DNA of 64,000 nucleotides from a virus. The position numbers and the translations under genes were made by a program. Of this stretch, positions 2,874-54,973 are shown one piece after another. The notes under the pieces were generated by a model. The model was not told the origin of the DNA. It ran no database searches and was given only the letters and a program-made list of their open reading frames with translations. Where the stretch lies: IMG/VR virus record IMGVR_UViG_3300027706_000269, positions 1 through 64,000 of that record; one strand, given 5' to 3'. Numbering within the stretch: the stretch's first letter is position 1; every line of letters starts with the position of its first letter.

Positions 2874-2958
2874 GACGGCTCCAGGGAATCGAAACCGTCA
2901 GTGATGGTCCGCGAGGCCGTCCGAAACGGATGGCAACGCATAGCAATGCGTCTCTATC

Positions 2959-2987
2959 TTGCAAATCTTGTTTCGCAAGAATACAAT
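2959..2987 (+). promoter_or_regulatory. Sigma70-type promoter with an operator in the spacer
   Basis: TTGCAA-17 bp-TACAAT, with the inverted repeat TCTTG-N5-CAAGA at 2966-2980. Confidence 0.72.
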
Positions 2988-3012: not shown

Positions 3013-4131
3013 ATGCTCGACCGTCTTTCCCCTCGCTTGGTGGGCTATCGCGTGAAAGCTGCACGCGAGGGCAAGGGCTGGACGCAAGAACAGTTGACTG
3101 CCGCGATGGGCATCAACGATCGGCAGACGCTGTCGGACATCGAGAAGGGCAAGCGGCTGGTGAAGCCAGATGAGTTGGTCCTGCTGTCCGACGTGCTCGA
3201 CCGCGACGTCGAGTTCTTTCTGGACCCGTTCGCTGTCACCGGCGAGGCTCAGTTCAACTGGCGCGCAGCTCCCGAGATCGACGAGGCGAGCCTGGACGCG
3301 TTCGAGCTAAAGGCGGGCCAGTGGATTGGCCTCCTGCGATGGCTGAGGGCGTCAGAGAACCAGCAAGGCCCGCTCAAGCACAGCCTGAGGCTCACCGCGC
3401 AGTCCTCGTTCGAGGATGCCCAGGCGCGGGCCGAAAGCCTCGTACAGGCGCTGGAGTTGGGTGATGTGCCCGCCGAGCGCCTGATTGAGCGCGTGGAGCG
3501 CGGTCTCGACATTCCGGTGCTGTTCGTGGATACCGTCCAAACCGAGGAAGGCGAGTCGATTTCAGGCGCGACCTGCCACTTGCAGGATCTGGGCGTCATC
3601 CTTATCAACCGTCACGAGCCCGAATCGCGGCGCTTCTACGACCTCGCGCATGAGCTGTTCCATGCGCTGACTTGGGACGCGATGCAGCCCGACCACCGGG
3701 AATCGAATTCGGTTGAGGACCGCTCCCGGGGCAAGCGCATCGAGCAACTGGCCAACAACTTCGCGGCTGCGCTGCTCATGCCGACGGCATCGCTGGACCG
3801 TCTGATTGACCGACGCCGCATCGACGACGCAGCCCACCTAGCGGAGATTGCAGCCCAGCTGCGCGTGGCGCCGGCAGCGCTGGCGTGGCGGCTGTTCAAC
3901 CTGCGATGGATCACGGAGCCGACGCGCCAGGCGCTCCTGTCTGAGCGGCAGCGGCTCTCGCGATCTGCAATTCCGAAGCGTTTCTCGCCTGTGTTCGTTG
4001 CGATGCTGCATCGGGCGATCGACCATGGGAGGCTGTCGGCGCGTAAGGCAGCTAAGGCGATGGGCATGAGCCTCACGCAGCTGGTCGACCTGTTTGCTGA
4101 GCATTCCTTGGCTGCACCCTATGAGCTTTGA
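3013..4131 (+). CDS. XRE-HTH fused to an ImmA/IrrE-type Zn metallopeptidase
   Basis: N-terminal HTH (WTQEQL...QTLSDIEKGKR), LAHELFHAL (HExxH) and EQLANNFAAALLMP. GAGGA RBS. Confidence 0.92.
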   Translation: MLDRLSPRLVGYRVKAAREGKGWTQEQLTAAMGINDRQTLSDIEKGKRLVKPDELVLLSDVLDRDVEFFLDPFAVTGEAQFNWRAAPEIDEASLDAFELKAGQWIGLLRWLRASENQQGPLKHSLRLTAQSSFEDAQARAESLVQALELGDVPAERLIERVERGLDIPVLFVDTVQTEEGESISGATCHLQDLGVILINRHEPESRRFYDLAHELFHALTWDAMQPDHRESNSVEDRSRGKRIEQLANNFAAALLMPTASLDRLIDRRRIDDAAHLAEIAAQLRVAPAALAWRLFNLRWITEPTRQALLSERQRLSRSAIPKRFSPVFVAMLHRAIDHGRLSARKAAKAMGMSLTQLVDLFAEHSLAAPYEL

Positions 4132-4143
4132 GGTGCGCCCGGA

Positions 4144-4686
4144 ATGCAGCAGGTCGTCGCTCCTCACGCCCGGGTCCGCGTTTTCGTCGACACCAATGTC
4201 ATCCTCGAAGCCTTCCGCGTTGGGTGCTGGTCATCACTGGCAACTACCTTTTCGATTGAAACCGTCGAGAAGTGCGTCGAGGAAGCCCTGACAGGGGACC
4301 CGACTGATCCGCGCCACGTAGCTGTCGATCGCGACGTTCTGGTCGCAGGTTTGTCGGCGCGCCACCCGGTCGACAAACGCACCATCGCCAGGTTCGGGCT
4401 TGCCCATCCGGCCAGCGCTGGACTCGACGCCGGGGAGCTTCACTTGCTGGCCTGGCTCCATGACCAAGGATTGATGGGGACAGTCAAGCTGCTGCTATCG
4501 ACGGCGGACAAGGCGGCGATCGTCGCCGCCGGTCGTCTCGACTGGCTCGATCTGGTGACGTCTCTGGAGCAATTGGCCCAGCAAGCCGGCGTCGGCCGAG
4601 TTCAGATCGACCAAATGGCTCGCCACTACCGCCAGCGGTGGCTCGATGAGATCAAGGTGAAGGTCCGTCTCGGGATCATCCCCTGA
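4144..4686 (+). CDS. PIN-domain protein
   Basis: VFVDTNVIL, LDAGE and STADKAA give the acidic PIN signature. Confidence 0.8.
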   Translation: MQQVVAPHARVRVFVDTNVILEAFRVGCWSSLATTFSIETVEKCVEEALTGDPTDPRHVAVDRDVLVAGLSARHPVDKRTIARFGLAHPASAGLDAGELHLLAWLHDQGLMGTVKLLLSTADKAAIVAAGRLDWLDLVTSLEQLAQQAGVGRVQIDQMARHYRQRWLDEIKVKVRLGIIP

Positions 4687-4714
4687 CAGGAAGGTTGAGC
4701 AACAAGAACGAACA

Positions 4715-6928
4715 ATGACCCAGGCGAAGAAGAACACTGCCTCGTTCCATCGGTTTGTTGAAACCGCATCCCTTGGTGCCATTCGGACGCTTTGCGACAG
4801 CGTCAGCGACCTGGCAGGTCAGCTGTGGGTTACGTCCGCGCTCGCGCAACTGACGCCTGAGGCCGATGCCCAGACGTGTGCCCAGGCTCGACGGGCGCTG
4901 TCCGACGGCTGCCGACATCTGACCACGGAATCCCTGTCGAGGCTTGAAGGCGATGCGCGACGGGTGATCGCATTGGCCGAAGGCAAAGGTCCCGCGGCAA
5001 TCAAAGTCGTCGAGCGCGACATCTACAAATTCGATGATCCGGAAGGCGGACTACGTGCCGGCTTTGATGCACAGACCGACGACCTTGGGAGATCGGTGTT
5101 CCTGCTGATTCGGGTGCCCCAGCTGTTCGAGGAGGCCGAGCGATTCCACTTCGCCGAGCACTATCGGAATTTCGGTCGCCTCTATGAAGCCTTCGAGGTC
5201 GACTGCGACCAACTGGCGCAATTCGAGTGGAACGAAGCCGCCAAGGCCGCGTTCGAGACCAAGATCAAGGAGCAGCTGCAGATCTCCGGTCCTTGCCTCA
5301 TTCAGCACTTCGAGGTCTCCCAGTCTGATGACGGTGCAGGTTCGCCTTCACTGCACATGTTCTTGATCCGGCATGCCGGAATGACCAGCAGCGTCCAGGA
5401 CACCTTGCCCGATCTCTCTCTACAGCCCATCCACTACAAGCCTCCGGTCGAAGCAACACTGCTATTCGAACCTGCCCAGAAGCGGATCGAGGTGTTCGCC
5501 GAGCAGGCAGCCGAGCGTCCGCTGATCGCCGCTGCGTTCGCGGAAGTCGCGACGGGATCAGATCTTTCAGGTAGGCCGATGTCGCTTCGCCAGTACAACC
5601 TGGAGCGCTTCTATCGGTCGCTTCATCTGTCGCAAGCCGAGGTGGAACATCTTGGTGTTTTGGACGTGCGAGTGGTCGAGGCCGAAGCGCGGCCGCAGAA
5701 CCTCAAGCGCCGTGTGGTGGTAAAGGTCGACAAGGACGACGACATCGATACCGCAGCGCGCGCCATGCTCGGCGACAACAACATCTTCAGCCGGGCAACG
5801 TTGATCAGCCGGGTCGTGATCAACCTGCGGTTCGAACGTAACGGTAAGGAGGTGAACCTGCCGATCACGCTGAGCGCGCCTAATCGTTGCAACCTAGCAA
5901 GCCGTCAGGACCCGCGCGACCGCGAGTTGGGCTATGCGGTCCTTGAGGCCTACGGCATCGTCAGATCGGTCGCGCCACTCGATGCCGCGAGCGAGGCCGG
6001 GCAGTTCAGCGCGATGCTGCGGTTGTATGAGTCGGATTGTGCGGAAGTCTCCCGCGCTGAACTGCACAACTGGGGCGCGGACGTTTCCGTGCTGCGGTCG
6101 GCGGGCTTCCTGGTTCCGAAGGCGCGGGCATCATTTGTGACCCGAGTTCGCGACGATGGGACGGTACTCCAGGCGCCAGTGCGTTCGATTGAAGGGCGGC
6201 TGGTCTTTGACGACCCGCAGACCGGACTCCTGGTTGCGGTTGATCCCAGCGAGCTGGAGCGATTCGAGGTCAAACGGGACTGGCTCACCGAGCGTGTCAT
6301 CAAGGGGTTGCGCGGGGCGATGCGCATGGGGCGCACGCCGCGGTCAACCGGTCCCGTCGTGAAGCTCGGTACGCTGGTCGACGGAAACGACGATGTTCCG
6401 GTGCACCTGGCTCGCTGCCTTGACCGAATGGATGTCATTGCCTCTGTAGACAGCAGTCTGCGCGGCGACGGTCAGTCGGGCTGGGGTGTGGTTCTGACAG
6501 CCACGGAGGTTTGTCCTGAGTTCCTCGGGGCGAACGTCATCGTGCAGTTGGCTGACGTCCTGATGGCGGACGAAGCTGGAATCACTGTCGACCAGACACG
6601 GCTGATGCAGATCCTGCGCGATGGTCGCCAGCGAGCCATCGCCGCAGCCGTTCCTGATCTGCGCATCACCTGCGATATCGCGGGCAAGGAAACGGCCACG
6701 CTCATCATCCCTGGCAAGCTGCCGTTCTCTCTCGTCGGGGGCAAACAAGTTCTGGTGGTCGAGCGCTTGATGCAAGCGCATCGCGCAGGCAATCCGGTTG
6801 TCACCGGTGGCGCGCTGTTCGAAGGCATGAGCAGCAAGTCTCCTGCCCAGCTCTTTACTGGCGATACCTGGAAGCAGTACATCGGGCATCCACCCGACAA
6901 GTCCCGGGGGTGGATGCTGCTGCTCTGA
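4715..6928 (+). CDS. Uncharacterised 737-aa protein with a probable C-terminal winged helix
   Basis: Long ORF with collinear motif matches to 51428-53683 along its length. Confidence 0.85.
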   Translation: MTQAKKNTASFHRFVETASLGAIRTLCDSVSDLAGQLWVTSALAQLTPEADAQTCAQARRALSDGCRHLTTESLSRLEGDARRVIALAEGKGPAAIKVVERDIYKFDDPEGGLRAGFDAQTDDLGRSVFLLIRVPQLFEEAERFHFAEHYRNFGRLYEAFEVDCDQLAQFEWNEAAKAAFETKIKEQLQISGPCLIQHFEVSQSDDGAGSPSLHMFLIRHAGMTSSVQDTLPDLSLQPIHYKPPVEATLLFEPAQKRIEVFAEQAAERPLIAAAFAEVATGSDLSGRPMSLRQYNLERFYRSLHLSQAEVEHLGVLDVRVVEAEARPQNLKRRVVVKVDKDDDIDTAARAMLGDNNIFSRATLISRVVINLRFERNGKEVNLPITLSAPNRCNLASRQDPRDRELGYAVLEAYGIVRSVAPLDAASEAGQFSAMLRLYESDCAEVSRAELHNWGADVSVLRSAGFLVPKARASFVTRVRDDGTVLQAPVRSIEGRLVFDDPQTGLLVAVDPSELERFEVKRDWLTERVIKGLRGAMRMGRTPRSTGPVVKLGTLVDGNDDVPVHLARCLDRMDVIASVDSSLRGDGQSGWGVVLTATEVCPEFLGANVIVQLADVLMADEAGITVDQTRLMQILRDGRQRAIAAAVPDLRITCDIAGKETATLIIPGKLPFSLVGGKQVLVVERLMQAHRAGNPVVTGGALFEGMSSKSPAQLFTGDTWKQYIGHPPDKSRGWMLLL

Positions 6929-6957
6929 TCGCTACCTCTAGAGGAGTCAACGCCGTG

Positions 6958-6990
6958 CGGGCTGCCCTTGGGCAGCCCGTTCTGCTTCTG
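6958..6990 (+). terminator. Probable intrinsic terminator of the immunity-region operon
   Basis: CGGGCTGCCC-TT-GGGCAGCCCG followed by a T-rich tail. Confidence 0.65.
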
Positions 6991-6996: not shown

Positions 6997-7036
6997 ACCT
7001 ACATTCGACCTACAAAACATCAGCGGACGACCTACA
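6997..7036 (+). repeat. Three phased ACCTACA direct repeats at the early promoter
   Basis: Copies start at 6997, 7008 and 7030 (periods of 11 and 22 bp). Confidence 0.8.
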
Positions 7037-7087
7037 GACCGATTCGAAGAATGAGACGTGCCCTTTCACTACACAGGAGCACATCTC

Positions 7088-7354
7088 GTGAATACCCGAG
7101 TCCCTTCTGTTCAGACGCGCAGCCAATCTGCACGCTGGACGCAATCTGCAGGCGAAGTCCGCCTTGCCCTCAACGAGCATGAGCTGGCGGCCCGCTGGGG
7201 CCTGTCGGTCAAGACCCTGCGCCGCTGGCGTCAAGAGCAGCTCGGCCCGGTCTTCTGCAAGCTGGGCGCCCGCGTCACCTACCTGATCTCCGAAGTCGAA
7301 GCTTTCGAACGGCGCGTCTCGCGCTACTCGACCTTTGCTCGGGCGTACCAGTGA
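7088..7354 (+). CDS. AlpA/excisionase-like HTH protein
   Basis: LNEHELAARWGLSVKTLRRWR...GPVFCKLGARVTY. AGGAG RBS, GTG start. Homologue at 54974. Confidence 0.85.
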   Translation: MNTRVPSVQTRSQSARWTQSAGEVRLALNEHELAARWGLSVKTLRRWRQEQLGPVFCKLGARVTYLISEVEAFERRVSRYSTFARAYQ

Positions 7355-44128: not shown

Positions 44129-44488
44129 CTTCGTTCTGGCTGTCATCTGCCTCAGATCCCTTACTGCCTGCTAGCTCCAGAAGCTCCCTGACGCTACAAT
44201 CAGAATCCTGAGCGTTCGGAGAGTAAAAGTGGATCACGAGTTTTCGGGGAAGCTCGTGAACATGACAAAACACTCGGTTCTGTGCGCTTACTGGGCGCCT
44301 TAGCTTTAACCGCCATCCCGTTCGATGTGGGGTGATTAAAGGATTTCCTAGCGCCTCACCATTTGCCCGCTCCGGCGAAATAGCCATTGGCGAGCTCTCC
44401 GCCGCTAAACAGGCGATTGGAACGTCAGTCTCATAAATAACCACAAATTAGCCATGGCATCAAATAGCGTAGCAGGAAGGTTCTTCAA

Positions 44489-45445
44489 GTGATGCGACAG
44501 ATTAAGAGTGCAGATGCAGTGACGATACTGCATAACGATGCGCCGAAAGTGATCGAAGAGATCAACGATTTCACATCGCAGACGTTCAAGACACGAGGGG
44601 GACGCCTAGGCAGTGGCATGGGTAGCCTGCTCGAAGCCCTGTGGGTCTATTACATGAACAAAACCCTCATGAATGAGGGTGGATTGGCACGGGAATGTGA
44701 ACTTGCGTGGATGCAAGATCACGAGCCCTCCGATTTTGCCTGCCTGCAAAGAGGGGCCGAATGGGAGCCTCGGAGTCGACGTGGCGAGTTGTTTCGTATC
44801 GAAGCCAAGTCCATGAATATTGGCGTAGACGAAGCCAAAGGACACTTCACAAACCTTGCCAAGGAAACGGCAGAGCATGATCAGCTTCTTGTGCTCATCT
44901 GGTCATGGACCGAGCTGGGAAATAATTATTCATGGCCAAGAATTCACGATTACTTCCTTGGCCCTTCGCTGCCGATTATCAGGGCGCGAGATCAGCTTCA
45001 CCTCGCGCGAGGAGGGTTGTTCGTTGATAGAAGAGAATGCCCTGATGGGTGTGCGCCAGAAGCATGTACACACGATGGAGAGCCACTAAACGCAGCAAGG
45101 AAGCGCGAGCGCCGATCAGGTCCGCAGTCATGCAAGCCAGCAAACGTCGAGTATGCTGCCAATTTTGGCGGCCTCGTGCGGATGCTGAAGACCGACAATG
45201 ATGCTGCGCGTTCGGTCTTTCGGAGACTGCGGAAGGCCGATGATGTGGTTCATGCCTATATATCCTTCATTCACACGCACTTTCCGTCCGAGGAGATCAA
45301 CCACTTTAAGAAAGCTGAATGGCAATCTGTGTTGAAATCCCTTGGGATCAAAGCTAACAATGTGACCGCCGCCGAAGCTAATAAACTGTTGCGGGAGCAT
45401 GTGCCCGACTACCAAGATCACCTGCGGAGATTATTCTATAGTTAG
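44489..45445 (+). CDS. Putative PD-(D/E)xK restriction endonuclease
   Basis: GSLLE...PSDF...IEAKS. Convergent with the M and S genes; lower GC. Confidence 0.65.
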   Translation: MMRQIKSADAVTILHNDAPKVIEEINDFTSQTFKTRGGRLGSGMGSLLEALWVYYMNKTLMNEGGLARECELAWMQDHEPSDFACLQRGAEWEPRSRRGELFRIEAKSMNIGVDEAKGHFTNLAKETAEHDQLLVLIWSWTELGNNYSWPRIHDYFLGPSLPIIRARDQLHLARGGLFVDRRECPDGCAPEACTHDGEPLNAARKRERRSGPQSCKPANVEYAANFGGLVRMLKTDNDAARSVFRRLRKADDVVHAYISFIHTHFPSEEINHFKKAEWQSVLKSLGIKANNVTAAEANKLLREHVPDYQDHLRRLFYS

Positions 45446-46140
45446 GTCGCCACCTCAATTTCGATGACCGGTGTTCCTGACGAGAGCGCAGCCAAGAGTC
45501 CTTTAGCCTGTTGTGCAGGAAGCGTATCCAAGCGCGAACGCAAGGCGATGATCTCTTGATCGATCTGGGCAAGCTGTTCAACCAGTTTTGCTTGCACATC
45601 GAGAGGTGGAACGGGAACTTCGATGTCGAGTAGATCCCGCGTTGACATGCGCGGCAGAGATGCGCCTACGGTGAACTTGCTTGCAAACTGTGTGACGAAT
45701 GACGAAGCGAGGATGTGTCGCAAATAGCGTGAGAGAACAACGTCTTTGCGTGGAGAAAGTACGATGAACTCGCCGGAACACATGCCTTCGGACACCGGGG
45801 GGTGTGCCAGATAGACTTTGTTTAACTCAGGGCGCAGACGTCCATAGAGAACGTCGCCGACCCGAAACGTCTTCGACCGAGACTTTATCGACGACGCAGG
45901 TCGTGGAGAGAATTCCACCAACTCTCCGGTCGTCGATCGGACGTTTTCGAGGCCCACGTAGACAATGGGCTCGCTCCCGTACTGCCGGGGGTCGACTGTG
46001 GAGCGGCGCTCGTCGGCCAACTCTTTCAAGGGACGCATCCGGTAAGCAGATTTCCCGGCGAACTTCGTCTCAGTGAAATAAGAAACCGTCCACCGATCAG
46101 CCCGAAACAGTTTTGCACTTTCGACTACCATCGTCCACAT
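45442..46140 (-). CDS. Half-size HsdS-like specificity subunit (single TRD)
   Basis: YVGLENV, GDVLYGRLRP.LNKV, CSGEF, GASLPR and VPVPPLDVQ. Start overlaps the M stop (TGATG). Confidence 0.88.
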   Translation of the reverse strand: MWTMVVESAKLFRADRWTVSYFTETKFAGKSAYRMRPLKELADERRSTVDPRQYGSEPIVYVGLENVRSTTGELVEFSPRPASSIKSRSKTFRVGDVLYGRLRPELNKVYLAHPPVSEGMCSGEFIVLSPRKDVVLSRYLRHILASSFVTQFASKFTVGASLPRMSTRDLLDIEVPVPPLDVQAKLVEQLAQIDQEIIALRSRLDTLPAQQAKGLLAALSSGTPVIEIEVAT

Positions 46141-47756
46141 CACCAACCCTCCTTATCAATGAATGCCTTGAAGCGATCCGCAACCGCATTGAGGTTGCTT
46201 TCGCCGCACGTGCGGCCGCTGGCGTCATAGCCAATGGAATCAACATCGGCCAAAAAGATGTTGTAGTTACGTGTATACGTTTCACTAACCTCGTGCTTTC
46301 TGAGAATCAGAACGCTGGTCTTGATGTTTGCCCCGAAGGGGGAAAACGTCTCGATAGGGAGGCTAATGATTGCGCGAACACGTGCATGTCGTTCAATCCA
46401 ACTGCGAACTTTCGCGGTGTTTCGATTGCTCAATACACTATCGGGAAGGACGATGGCGAGGCGCCCTCCGTGGCGAAGTAGCTGGAGGCAACGTTCCAGA
46501 GCCACGATTTCTAGCGAGACTGTTGATCCGCATACTGTTGCAAGCTCAAATGGTCCAAGTTGTGTAAGGCTGTCACGCGGTAGATCTATGCCAAATGGCG
46601 GATTGGTCATCACGAGGTCGAACGTTTCGCGATAAAGGTCTGGGTAATTGGAGAACGGCAAGAGCGAATCGCTGCACCGGATGTTGCTATGCCCGTCGCC
46701 ATGTAGCCGCATGTCGGTCATGGCGATTCTGACCATACGATCGCTCTTCTCGATGCCGTGCAGCCGCGTGAAGGCAAACTCGTGGAACAGCTTGTCGGCC
46801 TTGGCGTGCATTCGTCGCACGTAATCGATAGCAGAGGTCAAGAAGTGGCCGGAGCCGCAGAATGGATCAATGATTAGCTCGCGAACGTTTGGCTGCATTA
46901 CCCTCACGATGAAGTCGATGACTTCTTTTGGTGTGAAGTACTGCCCCATTCCTGCGCGGATAGCTGGAGCTAGGACGTTTTGGAATGCGCGGCCCTTGAT
47001 ATCTACGGGTGATGCGGTCAGGTCGTGGTGTTGTAGGAGCTCAACTGCTCGAACGATGGCTGGACTTGATAGAAGCAATGGCTCACGAAAGACGCCACGG
47101 GAACGTTCATATGTCGGTATCTTATTGGAGAAAATTGCTCTGTCTTCATCGATCGCTCGCAGATAGAGCTGACGGATTTCGGCCGCGCATTCTTCGACCG
47201 ATCTGTAGCGTGAACGTTGGAATAAGAGTTCGCCCGTCTTAACGCTTTGCTCCTCATCGAAAAGCTTGGCGTAGATTAACTTGCAAATTTCGTCCAGTGC
47301 ATCGGGTGCGTGAAGTCCATCGATGTCTCGGAACGCGCTGTGCACTTCAAACAGTACGTTTTCAAGATTGCTTGTAAGGGGTTTGAGAGATTTAGGCTCA
47401 AGGCGATAAGCGGATGCCAGAATGTTTGGTTTCTCGAACGATGCGACGTAGTCGAAGTCGCCCGTGCGGAAACTGCGCCGGATGATCTTTGTGACTTGCC
47501 CTGTGGCGTCTAGCTGAATCCCTATGCTGGCAGTGGGCACGGAAAGGAGACACTTTCGAAGATGCGCGTCGGCATCCGGCGCAGCCCCCTTGGCAACTCC
47601 GCAGACTATGTACTTGGTCCCTCGGTCGTTGTGAACGACATAGACATCGTTGTCTGACTCTTGTGCGTAGCGGGAAATAACGTGGCCGCTGTCGGCTGGC
47701 AGCGAGAGCGCCGCAGCGATGAGTTGTTGAACCGTGGTGAGCAAGGGCCACTCCAT
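46140..47756 (-). CDS. HsdM-like N6-adenine methyltransferase
   Basis: GQYFTP, DPFCGSGHFL, NPPFG and AIVLPDSVL. The true start may be TTG at 47744. Confidence 0.93.
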   Translation of the reverse strand: MEWPLLTTVQQLIAAALSLPADSGHVISRYAQESDNDVYVVHNDRGTKYIVCGVAKGAAPDADAHLRKCLLSVPTASIGIQLDATGQVTKIIRRSFRTGDFDYVASFEKPNILASAYRLEPKSLKPLTSNLENVLFEVHSAFRDIDGLHAPDALDEICKLIYAKLFDEEQSVKTGELLFQRSRYRSVEECAAEIRQLYLRAIDEDRAIFSNKIPTYERSRGVFREPLLLSSPAIVRAVELLQHHDLTASPVDIKGRAFQNVLAPAIRAGMGQYFTPKEVIDFIVRVMQPNVRELIIDPFCGSGHFLTSAIDYVRRMHAKADKLFHEFAFTRLHGIEKSDRMVRIAMTDMRLHGDGHSNIRCSDSLLPFSNYPDLYRETFDLVMTNPPFGIDLPRDSLTQLGPFELATVCGSTVSLEIVALERCLQLLRHGGRLAIVLPDSVLSNRNTAKVRSWIERHARVRAIISLPIETFSPFGANIKTSVLILRKHEVSETYTRNYNIFLADVDSIGYDASGRTCGESNLNAVADRFKAFIDKEGW

Positions 47757-47758
47757 GA

Positions 47759-47792
47759 GACTATACGTCTGAGTGAGTTAGGACATCTTGTC
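47759..47792. promoter_or_regulatory. Two GACN5GTC sites over the methylase promoter
   Basis: GACTATACGTC (47759-47769, contains minus-strand TATAGT) and GACATCTTGTC (47782-47792). Confidence 0.7.
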
Positions 47793-47831
47793 GCATTTTA
47801 GCCCATGAGTCCACAGACAACACCCCTTTGT

Positions 47832-48468: not shown

Positions 48469-48933
48469 TCAGTCAAGCAACCGCACCTGCTCGCGCCAGC
48501 CGTAAGGCCAGGGGCGGCCCAGCACCTTCTCGACGGCGAGGTCGGGCGATCCGATCAGCCGCTCGACCACCTCGGGCGCGAGCAGCGTCAGCCGCATCAG
48601 GCGATGCACTTTGGATACATCCAGCCCTTCGGCCTGGGCGATCTCGGCCGCCGACGCCACCCGCCCCTCATGGAGCAGCCGTTGCCAGTGGTGCGCCAGC
48701 CCGAGCGCGCGCATCAACGCCGTGTCCTTGGCCTCGGTGCGCGCCGGGCCGGCCCACGTCGAGTGAACCTCCACACCTTTCGGTGCGCCGGGCGGCGCGA
48801 TCACCGCGCGCCGGATGCCGCGCTGCACCAGCCGCCAGGGCACGAAGGTTTCCAGTTTCACGCCGCCCGCCGGCGTCGGCAGTTTCTGGGTGACCGGCGC
48901 TCCCTCGATGCGTCCCCGGTGCTTCGTGCTCAC
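48469..48933 (-). CDS. Recombinase-associated small HTH protein 2 (B)
   Basis: Homologue of 1-474. Confidence 0.8.
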   Translation of the reverse strand: MSTKHRGRIEGAPVTQKLPTPAGGVKLETFVPWRLVQRGIRRAVIAPPGAPKGVEVHSTWAGPARTEAKDTALMRALGLAHHWQRLLHEGRVASAAEIAQAEGLDVSKVHRLMRLTLLAPEVVERLIGSPDLAVEKVLGRPWPYGWREQVRLLD

Positions 48934-49313
48934 GCTTTCTCCTCGAAGCGCCGCACGATCTCGCGCTGGGCCGCCCAGTCCACCGGCAGCGGGTGGCGCT
49001 GGAACCAGATCAGGCTCATCCGGCGTGGCTGCCGCCCGGCCATCAGCATCTCGACGATGTCGGGCGCGAGCAGCGTCAGGCGCAGCAGCTCGTTGACCAC
49101 CGAGTGGTGCAGCCCTTCGGCACGCGCGATGGCCGAGCCGCTGGGCATCGCGCCGCTGTCTAGCAGCCGTTGCCAGTGGAAGGCCCGTGCCATCCCTTCG
49201 ATGAGCGTGCTGTCGTGCGCGTCCCGGTCCTCGGCCTGGTGCTGAACCAGCCGGCGCACGCCGCGCCGCCGCAGGGTCAGCGGCACGAAGGTCTCGAGCG
49301 TCCCGTCCTTCAT
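48930..49313 (-). CDS. Recombinase-associated small HTH protein 1 (B)
   Basis: Homologue of 471-854. Confidence 0.8.
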   Translation of the reverse strand: MKDGTLETFVPLTLRRRGVRRLVQHQAEDRDAHDSTLIEGMARAFHWQRLLDSGAMPSGSAIARAEGLHHSVVNELLRLTLLAPDIVEMLMAGRQPRRMSLIWFQRHPLPVDWAAQREIVRRFEEKA

Positions 49314-50689
49314 GCCTCGACCTCCAGCAGCTCGGCGCCGATGCTCCTGGGCGCGAACTCGCCGATCAAGGCGTCCCAGCCCAGTTCGCGCCACTTCACC
49401 CGGATGCCCTGCATCTCGTCGGTGTGGACGAGATCGATGCGCTCGATCATCAGGTTGGCGATGCGGTGCTGCTCAACCGGGAAGAGCTGATCCCACACGT
49501 CGTTGAGGCGCCCCATCGCCATCACGACCGTGGCCTCGTCGATCGGTGCGCCCTGGCGTTGGATGTGGCGCACGACGGCGGCGATGGATTCGGGGCTGGT
49601 CAGCACGGTGCGGATCTGGGCCACGACCGCCGCCTCGATCTCGCGGGCGGGCAGGCGCTCGTAGCTCTTGCCCGGCGCGCCGAAGCGGCTCTCGGACTTG
49701 GAGACGTAGTACTGGTACTTGCGGCCGTTCTTGCGCGAGTACGTGGGGTACATGCGTTCGCCCGTCGGCGCGTACAGCAGCCCGCGCAGCAGCGCATCGT
49801 TGCGCGAGCGGATCTTGGTGTCCACCGACCGCGCGTGGCTGTCGCGGGCCAGCACCGCGTGAACCTGGTTCCACAGCTGGCGTTCGATGATCGGCTCGTG
49901 CACGCCGGGGTACCACTGGCCCCGGTTCGACAACTCCCCGAGGTATATGCGGTTGCGCAGCACCTTGTGGATGTACTTCTTGTCGATGCGCGTGCCGGTC
50001 CGCACCCGCCCGTCCTGCGTCGTCCACGCCTTGGTCGTGATGCCCTCGGCGGTCAGGCGCGCTGCGATCTGCGTGGGTGAGCCAATGGTCAACATCTCCT
50101 CGAAGATGCGGCGCACCACCGCCGCCTCGGCGGGGTTGACCACCAACTGGCGATTGACCACGTCGTAGCCGATGGTGGGCACGCCGCCCATCCACAGCCC
50201 CTTCTTCTTGGCCGCGGCGATCTTGTCGCGGATGCGCTCGCCCGTGACCTCGCGCTCGAACTGGGCGAAGGACAGCAGGATGTTGAGCGTGAGCCGCCCC
50301 ATCGAGGTCGTGGTGTTGAACTGCTGCGTGACCGAGACGAAGGACACGCCGTGGCGCTCGAACACCTCGACCATCTTGGAGAAGTCGGCGAGGCTCCTCG
50401 TCAGGCGGTCGATCTTGTAGACCACCACGATGTCGATCAGCCCGCGCTGGATATCGGCCATCAGGCGCTTCAAGGCCGGGCGCTCGGTGTTGCCGCCGGA
50501 GTAGCCGGGGTCGTCGTAGTCGTCGGCCACCGGAATCCATCCCTCGGCGCGCTGGCTGGCGATGAAGGCGTGCCCGGCTTCCTTTTGCGCATCGATGGAG
50601 TTGAACTCCTGGTCGAGCCGCTCGTCCGACGACACCCGGCAGTAGACCGCACAGCGCTTGCGCGCCTTGGTGGAGGCGATTTCCGTCAT
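49310..50689 (-). CDS. Large serine recombinase (B)
   Basis: Same motifs and length as 851-2230; near-identical protein. Confidence 0.95.
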   Translation of the reverse strand: MTEIASTKARKRCAVYCRVSSDERLDQEFNSIDAQKEAGHAFIASQRAEGWIPVADDYDDPGYSGGNTERPALKRLMADIQRGLIDIVVVYKIDRLTRSLADFSKMVEVFERHGVSFVSVTQQFNTTTSMGRLTLNILLSFAQFEREVTGERIRDKIAAAKKKGLWMGGVPTIGYDVVNRQLVVNPAEAAVVRRIFEEMLTIGSPTQIAARLTAEGITTKAWTTQDGRVRTGTRIDKKYIHKVLRNRIYLGELSNRGQWYPGVHEPIIERQLWNQVHAVLARDSHARSVDTKIRSRNDALLRGLLYAPTGERMYPTYSRKNGRKYQYYVSKSESRFGAPGKSYERLPAREIEAAVVAQIRTVLTSPESIAAVVRHIQRQGAPIDEATVVMAMGRLNDVWDQLFPVEQHRIANLMIERIDLVHTDEMQGIRVKWRELGWDALIGEFAPRSIGAELLEVEA

Positions 50690-51132
50690 CAGGCGCCTCC
50701 CTTCAGGCCGAAGAACAGCGGGCCGCTCCAATGCTGGCCGGTGATGTGCCGCGCCACGGCGGTCAGGCTCTTGAAGCGGCGGCCTTCGTATTCGAAGTGA
50801 CCATCGGCGTCAACCGTCACCCGGTGCTCGCGCTCGCCCCATTCGCGTAGCAGCACGGTGCCCGGTGCGAAGTCGAACTTGCGCGGGCGCGCGCGCAGTT
50901 TGATCTTGGAGTGCTTCGCGCCGATGGCCTCAAGGCGCTGGCGCGTTTCGGGTGCGAGTCCGCCGAAGGCTTCTTCCTGCAGCTTGTAGGCGATACGGGA
51001 TTCGACATGGGTGCGGTTCGGAAACTCCGGGCGCCGCTCGAAGTACCGATCCCAGAGCACCCAGAGTTCGGCCATCGGCAGGTGACTCAGCTCGGCGATC
51101 CGCGCCGCGATGGAAGCTTGTTTCTCGTTCAT
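50689..51132 (-). CDS. DUF2924 family protein (B)
   Basis: Homologue of 2230-2685. Confidence 0.88.
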   Translation of the reverse strand: MNEKQASIAARIAELSHLPMAELWVLWDRYFERRPEFPNRTHVESRIAYKLQEEAFGGLAPETRQRLEAIGAKHSKIKLRARPRKFDFAPGTVLLREWGEREHRVTVDADGHFEYEGRRFKSLTAVARHITGQHWSGPLFFGLKGGA

Positions 51133-51427: not shown

Positions 51428-53683
51428 TCAGACGTCTTCGGTGACTGCTTCGATCGCAGCGCTGCGCGTGTCGCTGTCATCGACGATCACTCGATCGAGT
51501 GGGGTCAGCTTCAGCTGCCACGCCCGCGTGCCTGGGACCTTTTCGAGATAGTCGCGCCAGGGCGAGTGCTTGCCGGTGAAGAGGTTGGCCGGAGACGTGC
51601 AGCCCGTGCCGGCCATCAGCGCCTTCGTGTTGACGTGGGGCGTTCCTGCGGCCCAGGCCTCCACCAGCCGCTGCAAGACGGCGATCCTTGCTTTGCCCGT
51701 GACCCGCCACGGCGCCTTGCCCGGAAGGTACAGCGTCGCCGCGTGACCATCGGGGGCGACCTTGAGCGTCACCGTCGACCCGCCCATGGCCGCCAGTTGC
51801 CCGTGGCGATAGGCCACCTTCAGCCGGTCCAGGTCGATGGCGCTGCCGTTGCCCGCATCGGCGAGCACATCCTCGATGGGAATGACGACATTGGTGCCGG
51901 CGAATGGCAGCGGCGTCGAGGTCGTCGTCAACACCACGCCCGCCACCGGGCGCGGACGAAGCCTCAGCGCAGCGTCGACTTTCGCGTACGCGCGCTCGTG
52001 GGACATCCTGGAGGCGAAGTACAGCGCCACGGCATGGCCGTCGATGTCGATCTCGCCAAGGAACACCGGCTCGTCGTCGAAGTGCCGACTGCGGGGTCCT
52101 TTCAAGGCCGATCCCAGCGCCGTGATCAATTCCTCGCGCAACCAGTCCAGCTGCACCTTCCAGCGCCGGGCGAGACGGGCCGGCATGACCACGTCGTTGC
52201 CCGTCAGAGGATCGCGGTAGCGCACGGTGTCGGCATCGGCGCAGCGTTCGAGCACCACCTTCATCGGCTCGCCTTCGTCGACGGGGACCGACAGCTCGGC
52301 GATGCGCTCGCCTTCGATGAGGATGCCTTCGTCCTGCAGCCGCTCGATGTCGATGCCGAGCTTATGCAGTGCGAAGCCGTCCATCGGGCTGCTGGCGCTC
52401 TCCAGAAGCCGGGCCACCTGCGCGATCAGGCTCGGATCGTCCCGCCCGCAGCCCGGGTGCAGCGGTTTGCGCACCCCCAGGGCCTCGAGCAGTTGCATCC
52501 CGGCGCGGCGCAGGCGTTGGTCTTTCTCGCCAGCCAGACTGCAGCGACCGGGCTCGGCCAGCACGATGGCCAGCGGGGTGGCCGCCGTCTCCCCCTCGAA
52601 CACCAGTTCGGCCACCAGGGTCACACCGAGCAAGGCACCAGGCTGCGCGAAGGGGTGGTTGCCCCAGCGCTCGTCGATCACCTCGTGCAGTTCTGCGCCG
52701 CTGTCGATGTGCAGCGTGACGGCGTCCGTGGCATGCCCAAGCAAAGCCTTGGCTTCGGTCAGATACAGCCGCTCGATGCGGCCCCCGTCGATGCGCGGCT
52801 TGGTGTCCTTCAGTGGCCGCGCAAAGCGCGACAGATCGTAGCGCGAGCGGTCCAGCGGACGGTTCGACAAGGGGGCCTTGAAGCCGTGCCGGGACAGCAC
52901 GTTGGCCAGCGGCGCACGGGTGCCCAGCGTCGGGGCAAAGACTTCGACGAGCCCACGATGAGGCGCGTAGATGAGGGTGGCGTCGCGCGCCGGGAAGTAG
53001 AAGAAGCTCTTGCGCTGGCGGTTGCGCATCTCCACCGCGGCCACCTGATCGCCGGCGAAGCGCACCACGAGGTAGTGCGTCGTCTGGGTCTGGCCTTGCC
53101 GGTCCGGCTCCTCCACGGCCACGTGGATGACCTCGCAGGGCTCAGCCAGCCGCATCGCCTCGGTGAGTTGCGCTTCCAGCCGGTCCTTGACCGCATCGTT
53201 CCACAGGAAGGGCGGCGCCTCGCCAGGCACGTCGAACGCGTCGTGCAGGCGTTTGAGCCCCTTCAGGTCCTGGGTGTTGACGATGGACTCGGCAGTGTCG
53301 AAGAGCTTGATCGAGGCCTCGCTGTGCGTGCGCATCCACACCGCGCGACCGACCTCGCCGCCTTCTTGCGCACGAAACCGTGCGAGCAGGTCCTCGTCGT
53401 AGAGCTGCTCGGCGACGGTGGCGAGGATGGCGGCCCCGCGTGCGGTGCTCAGGCGCAGCACCCGCAAGGCTTCGCGCTCGGCCGGATCGCGCCGCTCCTT
53501 GCGCAGGTGCTTGATGTGCTCGATGAGGGCAGCGCTCAGCTCCTTGTCCGCCCGCGTCCAATCAAACCCGCGCTGCAGTCCCAGGCACTCGGGCAGGCCG
53601 GCGAACAGCTTGAGGACTGAGGCCGGCACGCGCTCGACCAGCTCCAGCAGACAGTGTGCGTTGGTCAGGGTCTTCTTGCCCAT
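51428..53683 (-). CDS. Uncharacterised 751-aa protein, homologue of 4715-6928
   Basis: GGAGGGAG RBS; collinear shared motifs with the A protein. Confidence 0.85.
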   Translation of the reverse strand: MGKKTLTNAHCLLELVERVPASVLKLFAGLPECLGLQRGFDWTRADKELSAALIEHIKHLRKERRDPAEREALRVLRLSTARGAAILATVAEQLYDEDLLARFRAQEGGEVGRAVWMRTHSEASIKLFDTAESIVNTQDLKGLKRLHDAFDVPGEAPPFLWNDAVKDRLEAQLTEAMRLAEPCEVIHVAVEEPDRQGQTQTTHYLVVRFAGDQVAAVEMRNRQRKSFFYFPARDATLIYAPHRGLVEVFAPTLGTRAPLANVLSRHGFKAPLSNRPLDRSRYDLSRFARPLKDTKPRIDGGRIERLYLTEAKALLGHATDAVTLHIDSGAELHEVIDERWGNHPFAQPGALLGVTLVAELVFEGETAATPLAIVLAEPGRCSLAGEKDQRLRRAGMQLLEALGVRKPLHPGCGRDDPSLIAQVARLLESASSPMDGFALHKLGIDIERLQDEGILIEGERIAELSVPVDEGEPMKVVLERCADADTVRYRDPLTGNDVVMPARLARRWKVQLDWLREELITALGSALKGPRSRHFDDEPVFLGEIDIDGHAVALYFASRMSHERAYAKVDAALRLRPRPVAGVVLTTTSTPLPFAGTNVVIPIEDVLADAGNGSAIDLDRLKVAYRHGQLAAMGGSTVTLKVAPDGHAATLYLPGKAPWRVTGKARIAVLQRLVEAWAAGTPHVNTKALMAGTGCTSPANLFTGKHSPWRDYLEKVPGTRAWQLKLTPLDRVIVDDSDTRSAAIEAVTEDV

Positions 53684-53708
53684 GCTCCCTCCGATACAGC
53701 GCGGTGCC

Positions 53709-54281
53709 TCACATGGCCATGACCCATGGGCGCATCACCGCCACCGATTGCGTCAGCCCCTGCGCCAGCAGGGTGTCCAGGTAGTCGTCCGCCGACTTGG
53801 GCGGGTTCTTCAGACTGCGGCGGTGGCGGGCGACTGCTTCGAGCACGCCGGCCGGGTGCAGATCCAGCAGATCGACGATGAAGTCGTCCGGATGCTGCGC
53901 CGCGAGGTTGTAGGGCTTGAGCGCCTCGGGCGGGAAGTCCTTGAGGTTGAAGGTCACGATGAGGCTGGCGCCGGCGTGGATGGCGGCCGCCACCACATGG
54001 CGGTCGCTGGGGTCGGGCAACTCGATCGAGGCAATCAGGTACTCGAAGCCGGTGACCAGGCAGTCGCGGACGTGGGCGTTCATCAGCCGCCGCGTGCGCT
54101 CGAGCTGTTCGACCGAGAGATCGGGACGGCTGGCCAGCACGTGGCGCATCCACTCGTCGTGAATCATGTCGCTCCAGCGCGCCCGGTACAGGTCCGACAG
54201 CGCCAGATGCATCAACAGATCGCGCAGGGGCGCGGGATAGAGCACGCAGGCGTCGTAGACGACGGTGAAGTGCGAGCTCAT
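53709..54281 (-). CDS. PIN-domain protein (VapC-like)
   Basis: VVYDACVLY, IHDEW, PDPSDRHVVAAA and IVTFNLKDFP. Confidence 0.9.
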   Translation of the reverse strand: MSSHFTVVYDACVLYPAPLRDLLMHLALSDLYRARWSDMIHDEWMRHVLASRPDLSVEQLERTRRLMNAHVRDCLVTGFEYLIASIELPDPSDRHVVAAAIHAGASLIVTFNLKDFPPEALKPYNLAAQHPDDFIVDLLDLHPAGVLEAVARHRRSLKNPPKSADDYLDTLLAQGLTQSVAVMRPWVMAM

Positions 54282-54285
54282 CCGC

Positions 54286-54747
54286 TCAGTACCCCATGCC
54301 GAGTTCCTGGGCCTGCGCGGCCAGTTCGTCGAGGGCCTTGCGGCGCTCGGCATCGATCCGGTGCTTGTAGGCGATCACGTCCTGGTAACGCACCCGACGA
54401 TGCGTGCCGATCTTGTGGAACGGGATCTCGCCTTTTTCCAGCAACTGCACGAGGAAGGGCCGCGAGACGTTGAGCAGGTCGGCCGCTTCCTGCGTGGTCA
54501 GTTCGGCGTGGATGGGGATGACGGTGACGGCATTGCCCTGGCCGATCTCGGTCAGCACGTCCAGCAGCAACCGCAGCGCCGTCGTCGGCAGCGTCACTGA
54601 GCGCACGGCGCCCTTGTCGTCGTGGAAGTCGATCTGCTGGGTCTCGGCGCGCGTTTGCAGCACCGTCGAGAGCACGCGCCCGGATTCCCGAGCCAGCGCG
54701 ACGTCCTCGGCTGAGGGCAGCACCTTGGGGATGGTGGGGGTCGTCAT
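54286..54747 (-). CDS. Excisionase-family HTH regulator/antitoxin
   Basis: ELTTQEAADLLNVSRPFLVQLLE.GEIPF.KIGTHRRV; typical partner of this PIN family. Confidence 0.88.
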   Translation of the reverse strand: MTTPTIPKVLPSAEDVALARESGRVLSTVLQTRAETQQIDFHDDKGAVRSVTLPTTALRLLLDVLTEIGQGNAVTVIPIHAELTTQEAADLLNVSRPFLVQLLEKGEIPFHKIGTHRRVRYQDVIAYKHRIDAERRKALDELAAQAQELGMGY

Positions 54748-54783: not shown

Positions 54784-54820
54784 ATTGTAAACGAAACAAA
54801 CGAAATCGCAATAACCGAAA
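54784..54820 (-). promoter_or_regulatory. Promoter overlapped by CGAAA direct repeats
   Basis: Minus strand TTGCGA-16 bp-TACAAT. AAACGAAA at 54789 and 54798, AACCGAAA at 54813. Confidence 0.62.
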
Positions 54821-54854: not shown

Positions 54855-54973
54855 AGGCGCATGCCTGGCTCGCCACCGGTCGGGCCGCGCCCCGTGATCG
54901 CCTAAAAAGCACTCGCCCAAGCCCAAAGCGCCGGGCAATTCAATGAGGGCTCCCAAACAGAAGGAGCCCCGCC

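What the first reader, a model, noticed from the sequence alone, without database searches (positions are those of the whole stretch)
3013..6928. No cI/cro switch: the immunity slot holds regulator + PIN + an unknown ~740-aa protein in both prophages
Seen: A has XRE-ImmA peptidase, PIN and a 737-aa gene (+). B has an excisionase-HTH, a different PIN and a 751-aa gene (-, 51428-54747). The large proteins are collinear homologues: FEWNEAAK/FLWNDAVK; LSGRPMSLRQYNLERF/LSNRPLDRSRYDLSRF; PNRCNLA/PGRCSLA; DPQTG/DPLTG; GVVLTAT/GVVLTTT; ATLIIPGK/ATLYLPGK; SPAQLFTG/SPANLFTG. No S24-peptidase cI is visible. Inference: the large protein is the constant part, while the TA-like regulator-PIN pair is exchangeable and the cassette occurs in either orientation. 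It may be an undescribed lysis-lysogeny switch (a sensor/activator held down by an autorepressing TA pair) or a three-gene anti-phage system.
Basis: partly seen in the sequence, partly recalled or inferred. Interest (0 to 1): 0.85.

Follow-up and report, generated by a model that had tools for sequence, protein, structure and literature searches.

The report
Fused RexA-fold prophage switch protein
The ~740-aa unknown protein in both prophages is real and is a near-constant gene of a widespread prophage family; it is most likely a DNA-binding protein that controls the phage's early promoter, but no experiment has tested this.

Summary
Both AcaML1-like prophages carry collinear homologues (737 and 751 aa, 29% identity, E 5e-75) behind unrelated regulator and PIN-type genes, in opposite orientations.

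- **Not without a repressor:** A's XRE-M78 protein is an ImmR/ImmA-type candidate repressor. Relatives carry S24 LexA/CI-like, split XRE+M78, WYL or HTH_17 regulators in the same place, or none.
- **PIN genes are optional,** so an obligate three-gene system is not supported.
- **Distribution:** the large protein is the fused form of a commoner two-gene pair (~400 + ~320 aa). It was found in 34 of 401 sampled Pseudomonadota genomes, and in every context I inspected it lies between the serine-recombinase module and the early operon.
- **Fold:** an RdgC/RexA/CENP-N-like half, then a nuclease-like fold without catalytic residues and an OmpR/PhoB-type winged helix.
- **Likely target:** after its terminator lie 3-4 heptamers in 11-bp phase beside a weak -10 with no -35. 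Their sequence follows the large protein, not the neighbouring regulators.

Best reading (about 0.45): a sequence-specific regulator, probably an activator, of the early promoter, held under a damage-sensitive repressor. Earlier reports of this scan described the split pair on other DNA.

The parts
2957..2987 (+). Promoter of cassette A: TTGCAA-17-TACAAT, overlapped by the dyad TCTTGC...GCAAGA (candidate autoregulatory operator)
   Evidence: The 31-bp motif is unique in the window.
3013..4131 (+). XRE-HTH fused to an M78 (ImmA/IrrE) peptidase; candidate damage-sensitive repressor of prophage A
   Evidence: HTH_3 2.7e-13, Peptidase_M78 3e-12; PADLOC RmrA 2.4e-23; phrog_2439 transcriptional regulator, 1.6e-34.
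4144..4686 (+). 180-aa protein, possibly PIN-like. An optional rider that travels with the fused XRE-M78 type.
   Evidence: No family match. Atlas neighbour cluster named 'putative PIN domain-containing protein', score 0.97. Co-occurs with XRE-M78 in 7 lineages.
4715..6928 (+). Large protein A (737 aa). Helical N-terminus; RdgC/RexA/CENP-L/N-like fold (~150-424); restriction-endonuclease-like fold without a conserved catalytic motif (~421-636); OmpR/PhoB-type winged helix (~646-737).
6957..6985 (+). Intrinsic terminator closing cassette A: a 10-bp G+C-rich stem followed by a U-rich tail
   Evidence: dG -27.7 kcal/mol, z -4.1. The same layout occurs in L172.
6997..7036 (+). Three ACCTACA heptamers at 6997, 7008 and 7030 (11- and 22-bp phase); candidate binding sites of the large protein
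   Evidence: 6 copies in the window against 1.0 expected, 3 of them here..
7047..7052 (+). Weak -10-like hexamer AAGAAT of the early promoter, 10 nt after the last heptamer. No -35 match.
   Evidence: The same geometry recurs in other lineages. This is a consensus reading only.
7053..7354 (+). Leader hairpin that pairs with the ribosome-binding site (7053-7087), then the first early gene, a small HTH_17 protein (my cluster c5)
   Evidence: dG -13.6, z -3.2; HTH_17 2.7e-5.
54784..54811 (-). Promoter of cassette B: TTGCGA-16-TACAAT, with TTTCG-type repeats in its spacer
54286..54747 (-). HTH_17 (excisionase-type) regulator of prophage B, in the repressor position
   Evidence: HTH_17 4.5e-13; TIGR01764 1.4e-17. 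Equals AcaML1 Gp8.
53709..54353 (-). PIN_3 / RSP_2648-type PIN protein of B. The start may be at 54281, as annotated for AcaML1 Gp7.
   Evidence: PIN_3 8.8e-8; NF046100 2.9e-37, below its cut-off.
51428..53683 (-). Large protein B (751 aa); homologue of A and 98% identical to AcaML1 Gp6
54900..54928 (+). B-type repeats GCCTAAA, GCCCAAG and CCCAAAG upstream of B's early gene (54974-55237)
   Evidence: Weaker and less regular than in A.

Best explanation
The 737/751-aa protein is the single-chain (fused) form of a widespread, uncharacterised two-gene module. That module belongs to the backbone of serine-recombinase/DUF2924 prophages (AcaML1-like) and sits in their immunity region.

Most likely it is a sequence-specific DNA-binding protein that governs the early (lytic) promoter. 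In this model:
- its C-terminal OmpR/PhoB-type winged helix reads 3-4 heptamers set in 11-bp phase;
- these lie just upstream of a weak -10 that has no -35, so activation is the favoured reading, though occlusion (repression) is not excluded;
- the RdgC/RexA-like half provides dimerisation, non-specific DNA clamping or sensing;
- the gene is transcribed from its own promoter together with, or beside, an exchangeable damage-responsive regulator (XRE-M78 in A, HTH_17 in B, S24, ImmR/ImmA or WYL elsewhere), which would set when the protein is made;
- the PIN-type genes are optional riders.

**Shown:** gene structure, homology, fold resemblances, synteny, partner exchange, the operon boundaries by consensus, and the covariation of heptamers with the protein.

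**Inferred:** DNA binding, the target sites, the direction of regulation and the link to DNA damage.
For: **Backbone gene.**
- In all 47 loci found through the protein itself, it lies between the recombinase module and the early operon.
- With DUF2924 as an independent anchor, 35 of 38 loci with at least 5 kb upstream carry it, on either strand.
- 34 of 401 sampled Pseudomonadota genomes have it, mostly as adjacent N (~400 aa) and C (~320 aa) genes in the same niche.

**Immunity-like mosaicism.** Genes flanking A and B are 75-95% identical. The large proteins are 29% identical and the regulators are unrelated.

**Fold.**
- CENP-N Z 9.4, CENP-L Z 8.3, RdgC Z 6.9 over 216 residues.
- Lambda RexA appears in the Foldseek list, and phage proteins annotated RdgC in the viral structure library (BFVD) reach probability 0.87-0.92.
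- PMC11077077 groups RexA, RdgC and IML3/CHL4 structurally.
- The C-terminal model (pLDDT 93) gives at least 12 OmpR/PhoB-family matches for residues 646-737, Z about 5, 77-80 residues aligned.
- No conserved catalytic constellation.

**Own transcription unit.** Promoter at 2959-2987 and terminator at 6957-6985.

**Heptamers.**
- Phased arrays occur upstream of the first early gene in 11 of the 17 lineages where the large gene points the same way as the early operon, against 17.5% of random 260-bp windows.
- The last heptamer lies 9-11 nt before a weak -10-like hexamer in the six lineages where I read one.
- Natural swaps: L004/L058 and L071 share XRE-M78 at 92.8% identity and the early HTH protein at 92%, but their large proteins are 24.8% identical and their heptamers are unrelated (ACCTAGA against TCTGCG).
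- L058 and L005 have unrelated regulators (XRE-M78 against S24), but C-termini 78% identical and the same heptamer.
Against: - There is no experimental or expression evidence.
- The heptamers lie within about 130 bp of the 3' end of the large gene, so their covariation could reflect linkage inside one recombination module.
- The winged-helix and nuclease-like matches are only Z 5-7, within the range the tool calls common.
- 6 of the 17 lineages in the same orientation as the early operon, and the B-type lineages, lack a clear array by my criterion.
- Lineages with no adjacent regulator show no obvious control of the gene. I found no LexA boxes there, apart from one near-consensus box in L170.
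- The sites overlap the core promoter, so repression fits as well as activation.
- The nearest characterised fold relative, RexA, acts in exclusion as well as in the switch.
Confidence: 0.45

Rival explanations
1. Rex-like superinfection exclusion. The protein is made in the lysogen alongside the repressor, detects incoming phage DNA through its RdgC/RexA-like half, and stops infection, perhaps together with the PIN-type nuclease.
For: - The RexA/RdgC-type fold.
- A position directly behind a repressor-type gene in one operon, as rexA follows cI.
- Precedent: the RexAB-type defence of P. putida prophage P1 lies downstream of a CI-like repressor (PMC12894663).
- Rapid divergence between otherwise similar phages.
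Against: - No membrane protein in either cassette: the highest 19-residue hydropathy is 1.54.
- No PADLOC model matches.
- The gene is a near-constant backbone gene rather than a sporadic accessory one.
- No conserved catalytic residues.
- PIN is optional.
Confidence: 0.15
2. The large protein is the immunity repressor itself. It is made constitutively in the lysogen and binds the heptamers to occlude the early promoter. The adjacent XRE-M78, S24 or HTH_17 proteins are secondary regulators.
For: - The heptamers overlap the core promoter region.
- Lineages such as L172, L003, L029 and L032 have no other regulator in the slot.
- Tandem prophages A and B differ mainly in this module, as heteroimmune phages would.
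- The cassette promoter is close to consensus.
Against: - The early promoter has a weak -10 and no -35, so it looks activator-dependent and would need little repression.
- Most lineages already carry a classical damage-sensitive repressor type next to the gene.
- No cleavage or inactivation route for the large protein is evident.
Confidence: 0.2
3. One reading: an obligate three-gene anti-phage system in which a toxin-antitoxin-like regulator-PIN pair controls a large effector.
For: - Both cassettes in the window have three genes.
- The XRE-M78 protein matches PADLOC RmrA models (RosmerTA antitoxin, 2.4e-23).
- B's PIN is a bona fide PIN_3 domain.
Against: - The PIN or PIN-like gene is missing in many lineages: S24 plus large, HTH_17 plus large, or large alone.
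- No RmrT (toxin) model matches the 180-aa protein, and no PADLOC model matches the large protein.
- The large protein has no conserved catalytic residues.
Confidence: 0.05
4. A recombination or replication accessory: an RdgC-like modulator of RecA, or a cofactor of the neighbouring serine recombinase, with no role in transcription.
For: - RdgC-type fold, and matches to phage proteins annotated as recombination-associated RdgC.
- Constant linkage to the serine-recombinase/DUF2924 module. In B the gene lies about 100 bp upstream of that operon.
Against: - In A-type loci the gene is divergent from the recombinase operon and has its own promoter and terminator.
- The protein diverges far faster than the recombinase (29% against 95% identity).
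- This reading explains neither the C-terminal winged helix nor the covarying heptamers.
Confidence: 0.1

Closest known systems
Phage lambda RexA (cI-rexA-rexB immunity operon; PDB 8TWQ)
   Same: - RdgC-type two-domain fold.
- Gene placed directly behind a repressor-type gene in the prophage immunity region.
- RexA binds DNA and biases the lambda switch toward lytic growth (PMC11077077).
   Different: - No sequence relation: profile comparison gives probability 0.3.
- 737-751 aa against 279 aa, with an added N-terminal helical domain and a ~320-residue C-terminal half carrying a winged helix.
- No RexB-like membrane partner.
- A backbone gene of its phage lineage rather than a sporadic one.
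Bacterial RdgC and the kinetochore proteins CENP-L/CENP-N (IML3/CHL4)
   Same: Best structural matches to residues ~76-424: Z 6.9 to 9.4 with 170-216 residues aligned.
   Different: - No Pfam RdgC match.
- Different genomic context.
- Dimerisation could not be assessed (one search gave no verdict).
OmpR/PhoB-type activators and Pho-box promoters
   Same: - C-terminal domain with OmpR/PhoB winged-helix topology.
- Target-like 7-bp direct repeats with 4-bp spacers, ending about 10 bp upstream of a -10 in a promoter without a -35. I compare this with Pho boxes from memory.
   Different: - No receiver domain and no histidine kinase.
- The match is only Z about 5.
- Binding is untested.
Repressor-to-activator induction cascades (PrtR/PrtN of pyocins, SetR/SetCD of SXT, ImmR/ImmA of ICEBs1)
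   Same: Logic only: a damage-sensitive repressor (S24 or XRE+M78 type) sits next to the gene of a factor that would switch on the mobile element's early genes. I compare these from memory.
   Different: The candidate activator is unrelated in sequence and fold to PrtN or SetCD. Here it is co-transcribed with the repressor, or stands alone.
Split RexA-fold gene pair described by earlier reports of this scan (e1-2076589, e1-2168520, e1-1273804, e1-2499312)
   Same: Same family. My profile of the fused protein finds adjacent N (~400 aa) and C (~320 aa) genes in the same niche in 31 of 401 genomes.
   Different: - Here the two halves are one polypeptide, found in 3 of 401 genomes.
- The fused form has no zinc ribbon.
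- The link to the heptamers is added here.

Membership tests
RexAB-type exclusion system | RexA-fold DNA-binding protein | tested here: inconclusive
   - Fold-level resemblance is present: RdgC Z 6.9, CENP-N Z 9.4, and RexA 8twq_B at Foldseek E 1.3e-2.
- The profile comparison with lambda RexA found nothing.
- DNA binding is untested.
RexAB-type exclusion system | Partner membrane protein with about four transmembrane helices (RexB) | tested here: not met
   No protein of either cassette has a hydrophobic 19-residue window above 1.54, and no other ORF lies between promoter and terminator.
RexAB-type exclusion system | Encoded downstream of the prophage repressor in the same operon | tested here: met
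   - A: XRE-M78, the 180-aa gene and the large gene lie between one promoter and one terminator.
- L005, L006 and L097: an S24 repressor lies directly upstream.
RexAB-type exclusion system | Excludes superinfecting phages | not testable with these tools
   Needs phage challenge of lysogens or clones.
RdgC family (Pfam RdgC) | Match to the family profile | tested here: not met
   No Pfam family at E up to 0.1 for either large protein or for the split N and C proteins.
OmpR/PhoB-type winged-helix DNA-binding domain | Beta-sheet, three helices and a C-terminal hairpin; binds tandem direct repeats | tested here: inconclusive
   - At least 12 OmpR/PhoB-family chains match residues 646-737 at Z 4.3-5.1, rmsd 3.3-4.0, 77-80 residues aligned.
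- Phased heptamers lie nearby.
- No Pfam Trans_reg_C match.
- Binding is untested.
PD-(D/E)xK nucleases | Conserved D...(D/E)xK catalytic residues on the core strands | tested here: not met
   - The fold resemblance is weak: Can2 Z 6.7, FokI 5.6, Bax1 5.9.
- The only conserved polar positions are E/D439, D/E480, E526, D579 and R583. None lies on the strands at 591-595 or 607-611.
ImmR/ImmA-type (XRE + M78 peptidase) regulator | XRE helix-turn-helix plus an M78 metallopeptidase domain | tested here: met
   P0003 (the XRE-M78 protein of A) has HTH_3 at 2.7e-13 and Peptidase_M78 at 3e-12 in one chain. Relatives have the two as separate genes of 92 and 270 aa. Cleavage is untested.
RosmerTA (RmrT/RmrA) defence system | RmrA antitoxin together with an RmrT toxin | tested here: not met
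   RmrA models match P0003 (the XRE-M78 protein) at 2.4e-23. No RmrT or any other PADLOC model matches the 180-aa or the 737-aa protein.
CI/LexA-type S24 repressor | Peptidase_S24 domain | tested here: not met
   Absent from the whole 91.8-kb record. Present at the same position in relatives L005, L006 and L097.
PIN-domain toxin with an HTH antitoxin (cassette B) | PIN domain next to a small DNA-binding protein | tested here: met
   PIN_3 at 8.8e-8 (above its cut-off) and HTH_17 at 4.5e-13. Toxicity and neutralisation are untested. A's 180-aa protein is not confirmed as PIN.

The most novel reading that the evidence does not exclude
A new class of phage switch protein. A fused (or two-gene) RdgC/RexA-fold plus winged-helix factor would be the specificity determinant of the early promoter in a prophage family present in roughly one in twelve sampled Pseudomonadota genomes. 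It would read phase-locked heptamers that differ between heteroimmune phages. The classical damage sensors (S24, ImmR/ImmA, WYL, HTH_17 with PIN) would be interchangeable input modules plugged in front of it.
Probability: 0.35. Interest if true: 0.75.

Novelty: new variant of a known kind. Interest (0 to 1): 0.6.

Why it matters
How temperate phages outside the lambda model decide between lysogeny and lytic growth is poorly known. Immunity regions 'without a recognisable CI' are common in prophage annotation.

This family has no Pfam, NCBIfam or PADLOC model. I found no paper describing it; only phrog_37634, of unknown function, matches its N-terminal part. Yet it is a fixed part of a prophage lineage found in 34 of 401 sampled Pseudomonadota genomes, including the published phage AcaML1.

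If it is the factor that reads the early promoter, three things follow:
- it would explain how nearly identical phages become heteroimmune by swapping one module;
- it would show that different damage sensors can be exchanged in front of one output;
- it would give a second, regulatory, role to the RexA/RdgC fold.

The prediction is directly testable with a gel shift and a reporter fusion.

Tried and rejected
**Searches that found nothing**
- Sequence search of solved structures with the family profile: nothing.
- Profile comparison with lambda RexA: probability 0.3.
- Pfam, NCBIfam and PADLOC on both large proteins and on split forms: no match. Only phrog_37634, of unknown function, matches the N-terminal part.
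- Foldseek on the C-terminal model as a whole: nothing at E up to 0.001.
- Search for an operator shared by the cassette promoter and the early promoter of A: none found.
- LexA boxes upstream of large genes that lack a regulator: none by pattern. One near-consensus box (CTGTATATTTATCCAG) was seen by eye in L170.
- B-type lineages as an adjacency-free test of heptamer covariation: all share one motif family, so the test is uninformative.

**Jobs without a usable result**
- Homodimer prediction for residues 1-424: no verdict, so it counts neither for nor against.
- The broad 41-sequence alignment could not seed a locus search.

- The genome search cannot draw relatives for a virus record. I centred the sample on the Chitinimonas lacunae genome instead.

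**Ideas rejected**
- A nuclease effector: no catalytic motif.
- An obligate three-gene defence system: PIN is optional.

Full report
**What is there**

The window comes from a 91.8-kb provirus record. It holds two tandem prophages related to Acidithiobacillus phage AcaML1. Its closest genome match is a prophage of Chitinimonas lacunae.

Prophage A carries, on the plus strand:
- an XRE-M78 gene (3013-4131);
- a 180-aa gene (4144-4686);
- a 737-aa gene (4715-6928).

Prophage B carries, on the minus strand:
- an HTH_17 gene (54286-54747);
- a PIN_3 gene (from 53709);
- a 751-aa gene (51428-53683).

B's three genes are 97-99% identical in protein to AcaML1 Gp8, Gp7 and Gp6. The two large proteins align over 689 residues at 29% identity, E 5e-75. 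The one exception is that the 180-aa protein of A is only tentatively PIN-like.

**Transcription units**

Cassette A runs from a near-consensus promoter (TTGCAA-17-TACAAT, 2959-2987) to a strong terminator hairpin at 6957-6985 (dG -27.7 kcal/mol, z -4.1). The promoter is overlapped by the dyad TCTTGC...GCAAGA. Cassette B has a similar promoter at 54811-54784 on the minus strand. These are consensus readings, not evidence of activity.

**How widespread, and where**

- The family has no Pfam, NCBIfam or PADLOC model. Only phrog_37634, of unknown function, matches its N-terminal part.
- A profile search of 1.84 billion representative proteins found 569 clusters at E up to 0.001 and 118 at E up to 1e-30. 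They include N-terminal-only forms of about 400 aa and C-terminal-only forms of about 320 aa.
- In all 47 loci from genomes and viral contigs, the gene lies between a serine-recombinase module and the early operon. The recombinase module comprises a small ORF, a DUF2924 gene and the recombinase. The early operon comprises a small HTH_17 protein, a 160-aa protein, Bro-N and a primase.
- Using DUF2924 as an independent anchor, 35 of 38 loci with enough upstream DNA carry the gene, in either orientation.
- In a sample of 401 genomes from the phylum of the Chitinimonas host, 34 have it. Three have the fused form and the rest have two adjacent, often overlapping genes split at residue ~415, which is the domain boundary. 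Their contexts are the same prophage niche.
- It is therefore a backbone gene of a prophage lineage, not a sporadic cargo gene.

**The partners**

I clustered the family at 85% identity, which gave 63 lineages. The gene just upstream is one of the following:

| Upstream partner | Lineages |
|---|---|
| Fused XRE-M78 plus a homologue of the 180-aa protein | 7-9 |
| Split XRE (92 aa) plus M78 (270 aa) pair | 8 |
| HTH_17 with PIN, or without it (L081, L085) | 6 |
| S24 LexA/CI-like repressor | 4 |
| WYL-HTH regulator | 2 |
| Nothing (L172, L003, L029, L032, L035, L038, L048, L033) | 8 |

In several split forms the XRE-M78 gene is adjacent but divergent. Most partners are the kinds of regulator that serve as damage-sensitive repressors of mobile elements. 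So the slot is not repressor-less, and the PIN genes are dispensable.

Between prophages A and B the flanking genes are 75-95% identical. The large proteins are 29% identical and the regulators are unrelated. This is the pattern of an immunity-region swap.

**Fold**

An AlphaFold2 model of the whole protein has mean pLDDT 76.5.
- Foldseek lists CENP-N (E 2.8e-5), RdgC (1.9e-3) and lambda RexA (1.3e-2).
- VIA-align gives CENP-N Z 9.4 (residues 76-291), CENP-L Z 8.3 (149-421) and RdgC Z 6.9 (151-424, 216 residues aligned).
- The viral structure library (BFVD) returns phage proteins annotated as RdgC at probability 0.87-0.92.
- The RexA structure paper places RexA, RdgC, IML3 (CENP-L) and CHL4 (CENP-N) in one structural group (PMC11077077). 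All these hits therefore point the same way, although each Z-score is moderate.
- Profile comparison with lambda RexA shows no sequence relation.

The C-terminal 317 residues, modelled with 64 sequences, reach pLDDT 93.
- Residues 421-636 weakly resemble PD-(D/E)xK nuclease domains: Can2 Z 6.7, FokI 5.6, Bax1 5.9.
- Residues 646-737 resemble OmpR/PhoB-type winged helices: at least 12 family members at Z about 5, with 77-80 residues aligned.
- No catalytic constellation is conserved.
- No protein in either cassette has a transmembrane segment, so there is no RexB equivalent.

**The heptamers**

- The heptamer occurs six times in the window against 1.0 expected. Three copies lie at 6997, 7008 and 7030.
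- They are followed after 10 nt by AAGAAT, with no -35 match. A leader hairpin that pairs with the ribosome-binding site of the first early gene comes next.
- Arrays of at least three heptamers in 11-bp phase occur in the same place in 11 of the 17 lineages where the large gene points the same way as the early operon. Only 17.5% of random 260-bp windows from the same loci have one.
- In the six lineages where I could read a weak -10-like hexamer, the last heptamer ends 9-11 nt before it.

The heptamer differs between lineages, and natural recombinants are informative.
- L004/L058 (ACCTAGA) and L071 (TCTGCG) share XRE-M78 at 92.8% identity and the early HTH protein at 92%. Their large proteins are only 24.8% identical.
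- L058 and L005 have unrelated regulators (XRE-M78 against S24). Their large-protein C-termini are 78% identical and they share the heptamer ACCTAGA.
- A (ACCTACA) and L021 (80% identical large protein) share the heptamer.
- Group ACCTAGA and group ACCTACA differ by one base and have C-termini 51-57% identical.

The sites therefore follow the large protein, not the other DNA-binding proteins nearby.

The caveat is that the sites lie next to the end of the large gene, so they could be inherited with it for that reason alone. B-type loci, where the gene is 3 kb from the early promoter, all share one motif family (GCCCAAR) and cannot settle this.

**Mechanism proposed**

A 7-bp repeat with a 4-bp spacer, ending about 10 bp upstream of a -10 in a promoter without a -35, is the geometry of PhoB-activated promoters. 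I recall this from established knowledge and did not test it here. Tandem head-to-tail binding is how OmpR/PhoB winged helices work.

I therefore propose that the large protein binds the array through its last domain and controls the early promoter, more probably by activating it. The adjacent damage-responsive regulator would decide when the protein is made. The RdgC/RexA-like half would serve dimerisation, DNA clamping or sensing. RexA itself biases the lambda switch toward lytic growth (PMC11077077), which gives a precedent for this fold acting on a switch.

Repression by occlusion, Rex-like exclusion and a recombination role remain possible, and I list them as rivals. A homodimer prediction gave no verdict, and I could obtain no expression data.

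**Novelty**

I found no paper describing this family. AcaML1 Gp6 is annotated only as a hypothetical protein.

Four earlier follow-up reports of this scan described the split pair on other DNA as a RexA-fold pair beside the repressor. I reached the fold assignment before reading them. This report adds:
- the fused form;
- the survey of exchangeable partners;
- the backbone status, measured with an independent anchor;
- the covariation of heptamers with the protein.

I file it as a new variant of a known kind: an immunity-region protein of the RexA/RdgC fold within a repressor-to-regulator cascade. Its function is not shown.

Noticed in passing
window 48469-61752; loci L001, L008-L017: The left 13 kb of prophage B is 90-99% identical in DNA (94-99% in all but Tepidimonas ignava). 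Matches are prophages in Tepidicella, Tepidimonas, Caldimonas and Tepidiphilus (Betaproteobacteria), Silanimonas, Luteimonas and Thermomonas plus a Thioalkalivibrio genome bin (Gammaproteobacteria), and Acidithiobacillus caldus (AcaML1). Many hosts are from warm springs. This is an unusually broad and recent host spread for a temperate phage.
   Followed up: partly
window 44400-47800: A low-G+C island (53-54% against about 67%) lies at the junction of the two prophages. It encodes an N6 DNA methylase of 538 aa (N6_Mtase 3.4e-36), a half-size type I specificity subunit of 234 aa, and an unknown 318-aa protein. It is probably a restriction-modification-type cargo.
   Followed up: partly
window 7053-7087 and the equivalent place in L005, L057, L058, L072 and others: A conserved hairpin in the leader of the first early gene pairs with its ribosome-binding site (in A, GUGCC...GGAGCAC; dG -13.6, z -3.2). 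This suggests translational control of the early operon.
   Followed up: partly
L170 (G334:C12), about 120 bp upstream of the N-part gene: A near-consensus LexA box (CTGTATATTTATCCAG) precedes a distant, regulator-less member of the family. In some lineages the host SOS repressor may control the gene directly.
   Followed up: no
L005 6527-7179; L006 6627-7220: Further small cargo is inserted between the recombinase module and the S24 repressor: a HigB/HigA pair in L005 and a staphylococcal-nuclease homologue in L006. The slot is a hot spot for insertions.
   Followed up: no
window 54760-54830 (minus strand): The spacer and flanks of cassette B's promoter carry TTTCG-type direct repeats about 9-12 bp apart, likely operators of the HTH_17 protein. 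The same repeats recur in all B-type loci.
   Followed up: no
G001 (Chitinimonas lacunae LMG 29894) against the window: The sequenced C. lacunae genome holds only the A-type prophage (one match). The window's record has A and B in tandem, so the record comes from another strain or sample.
   Followed up: partly
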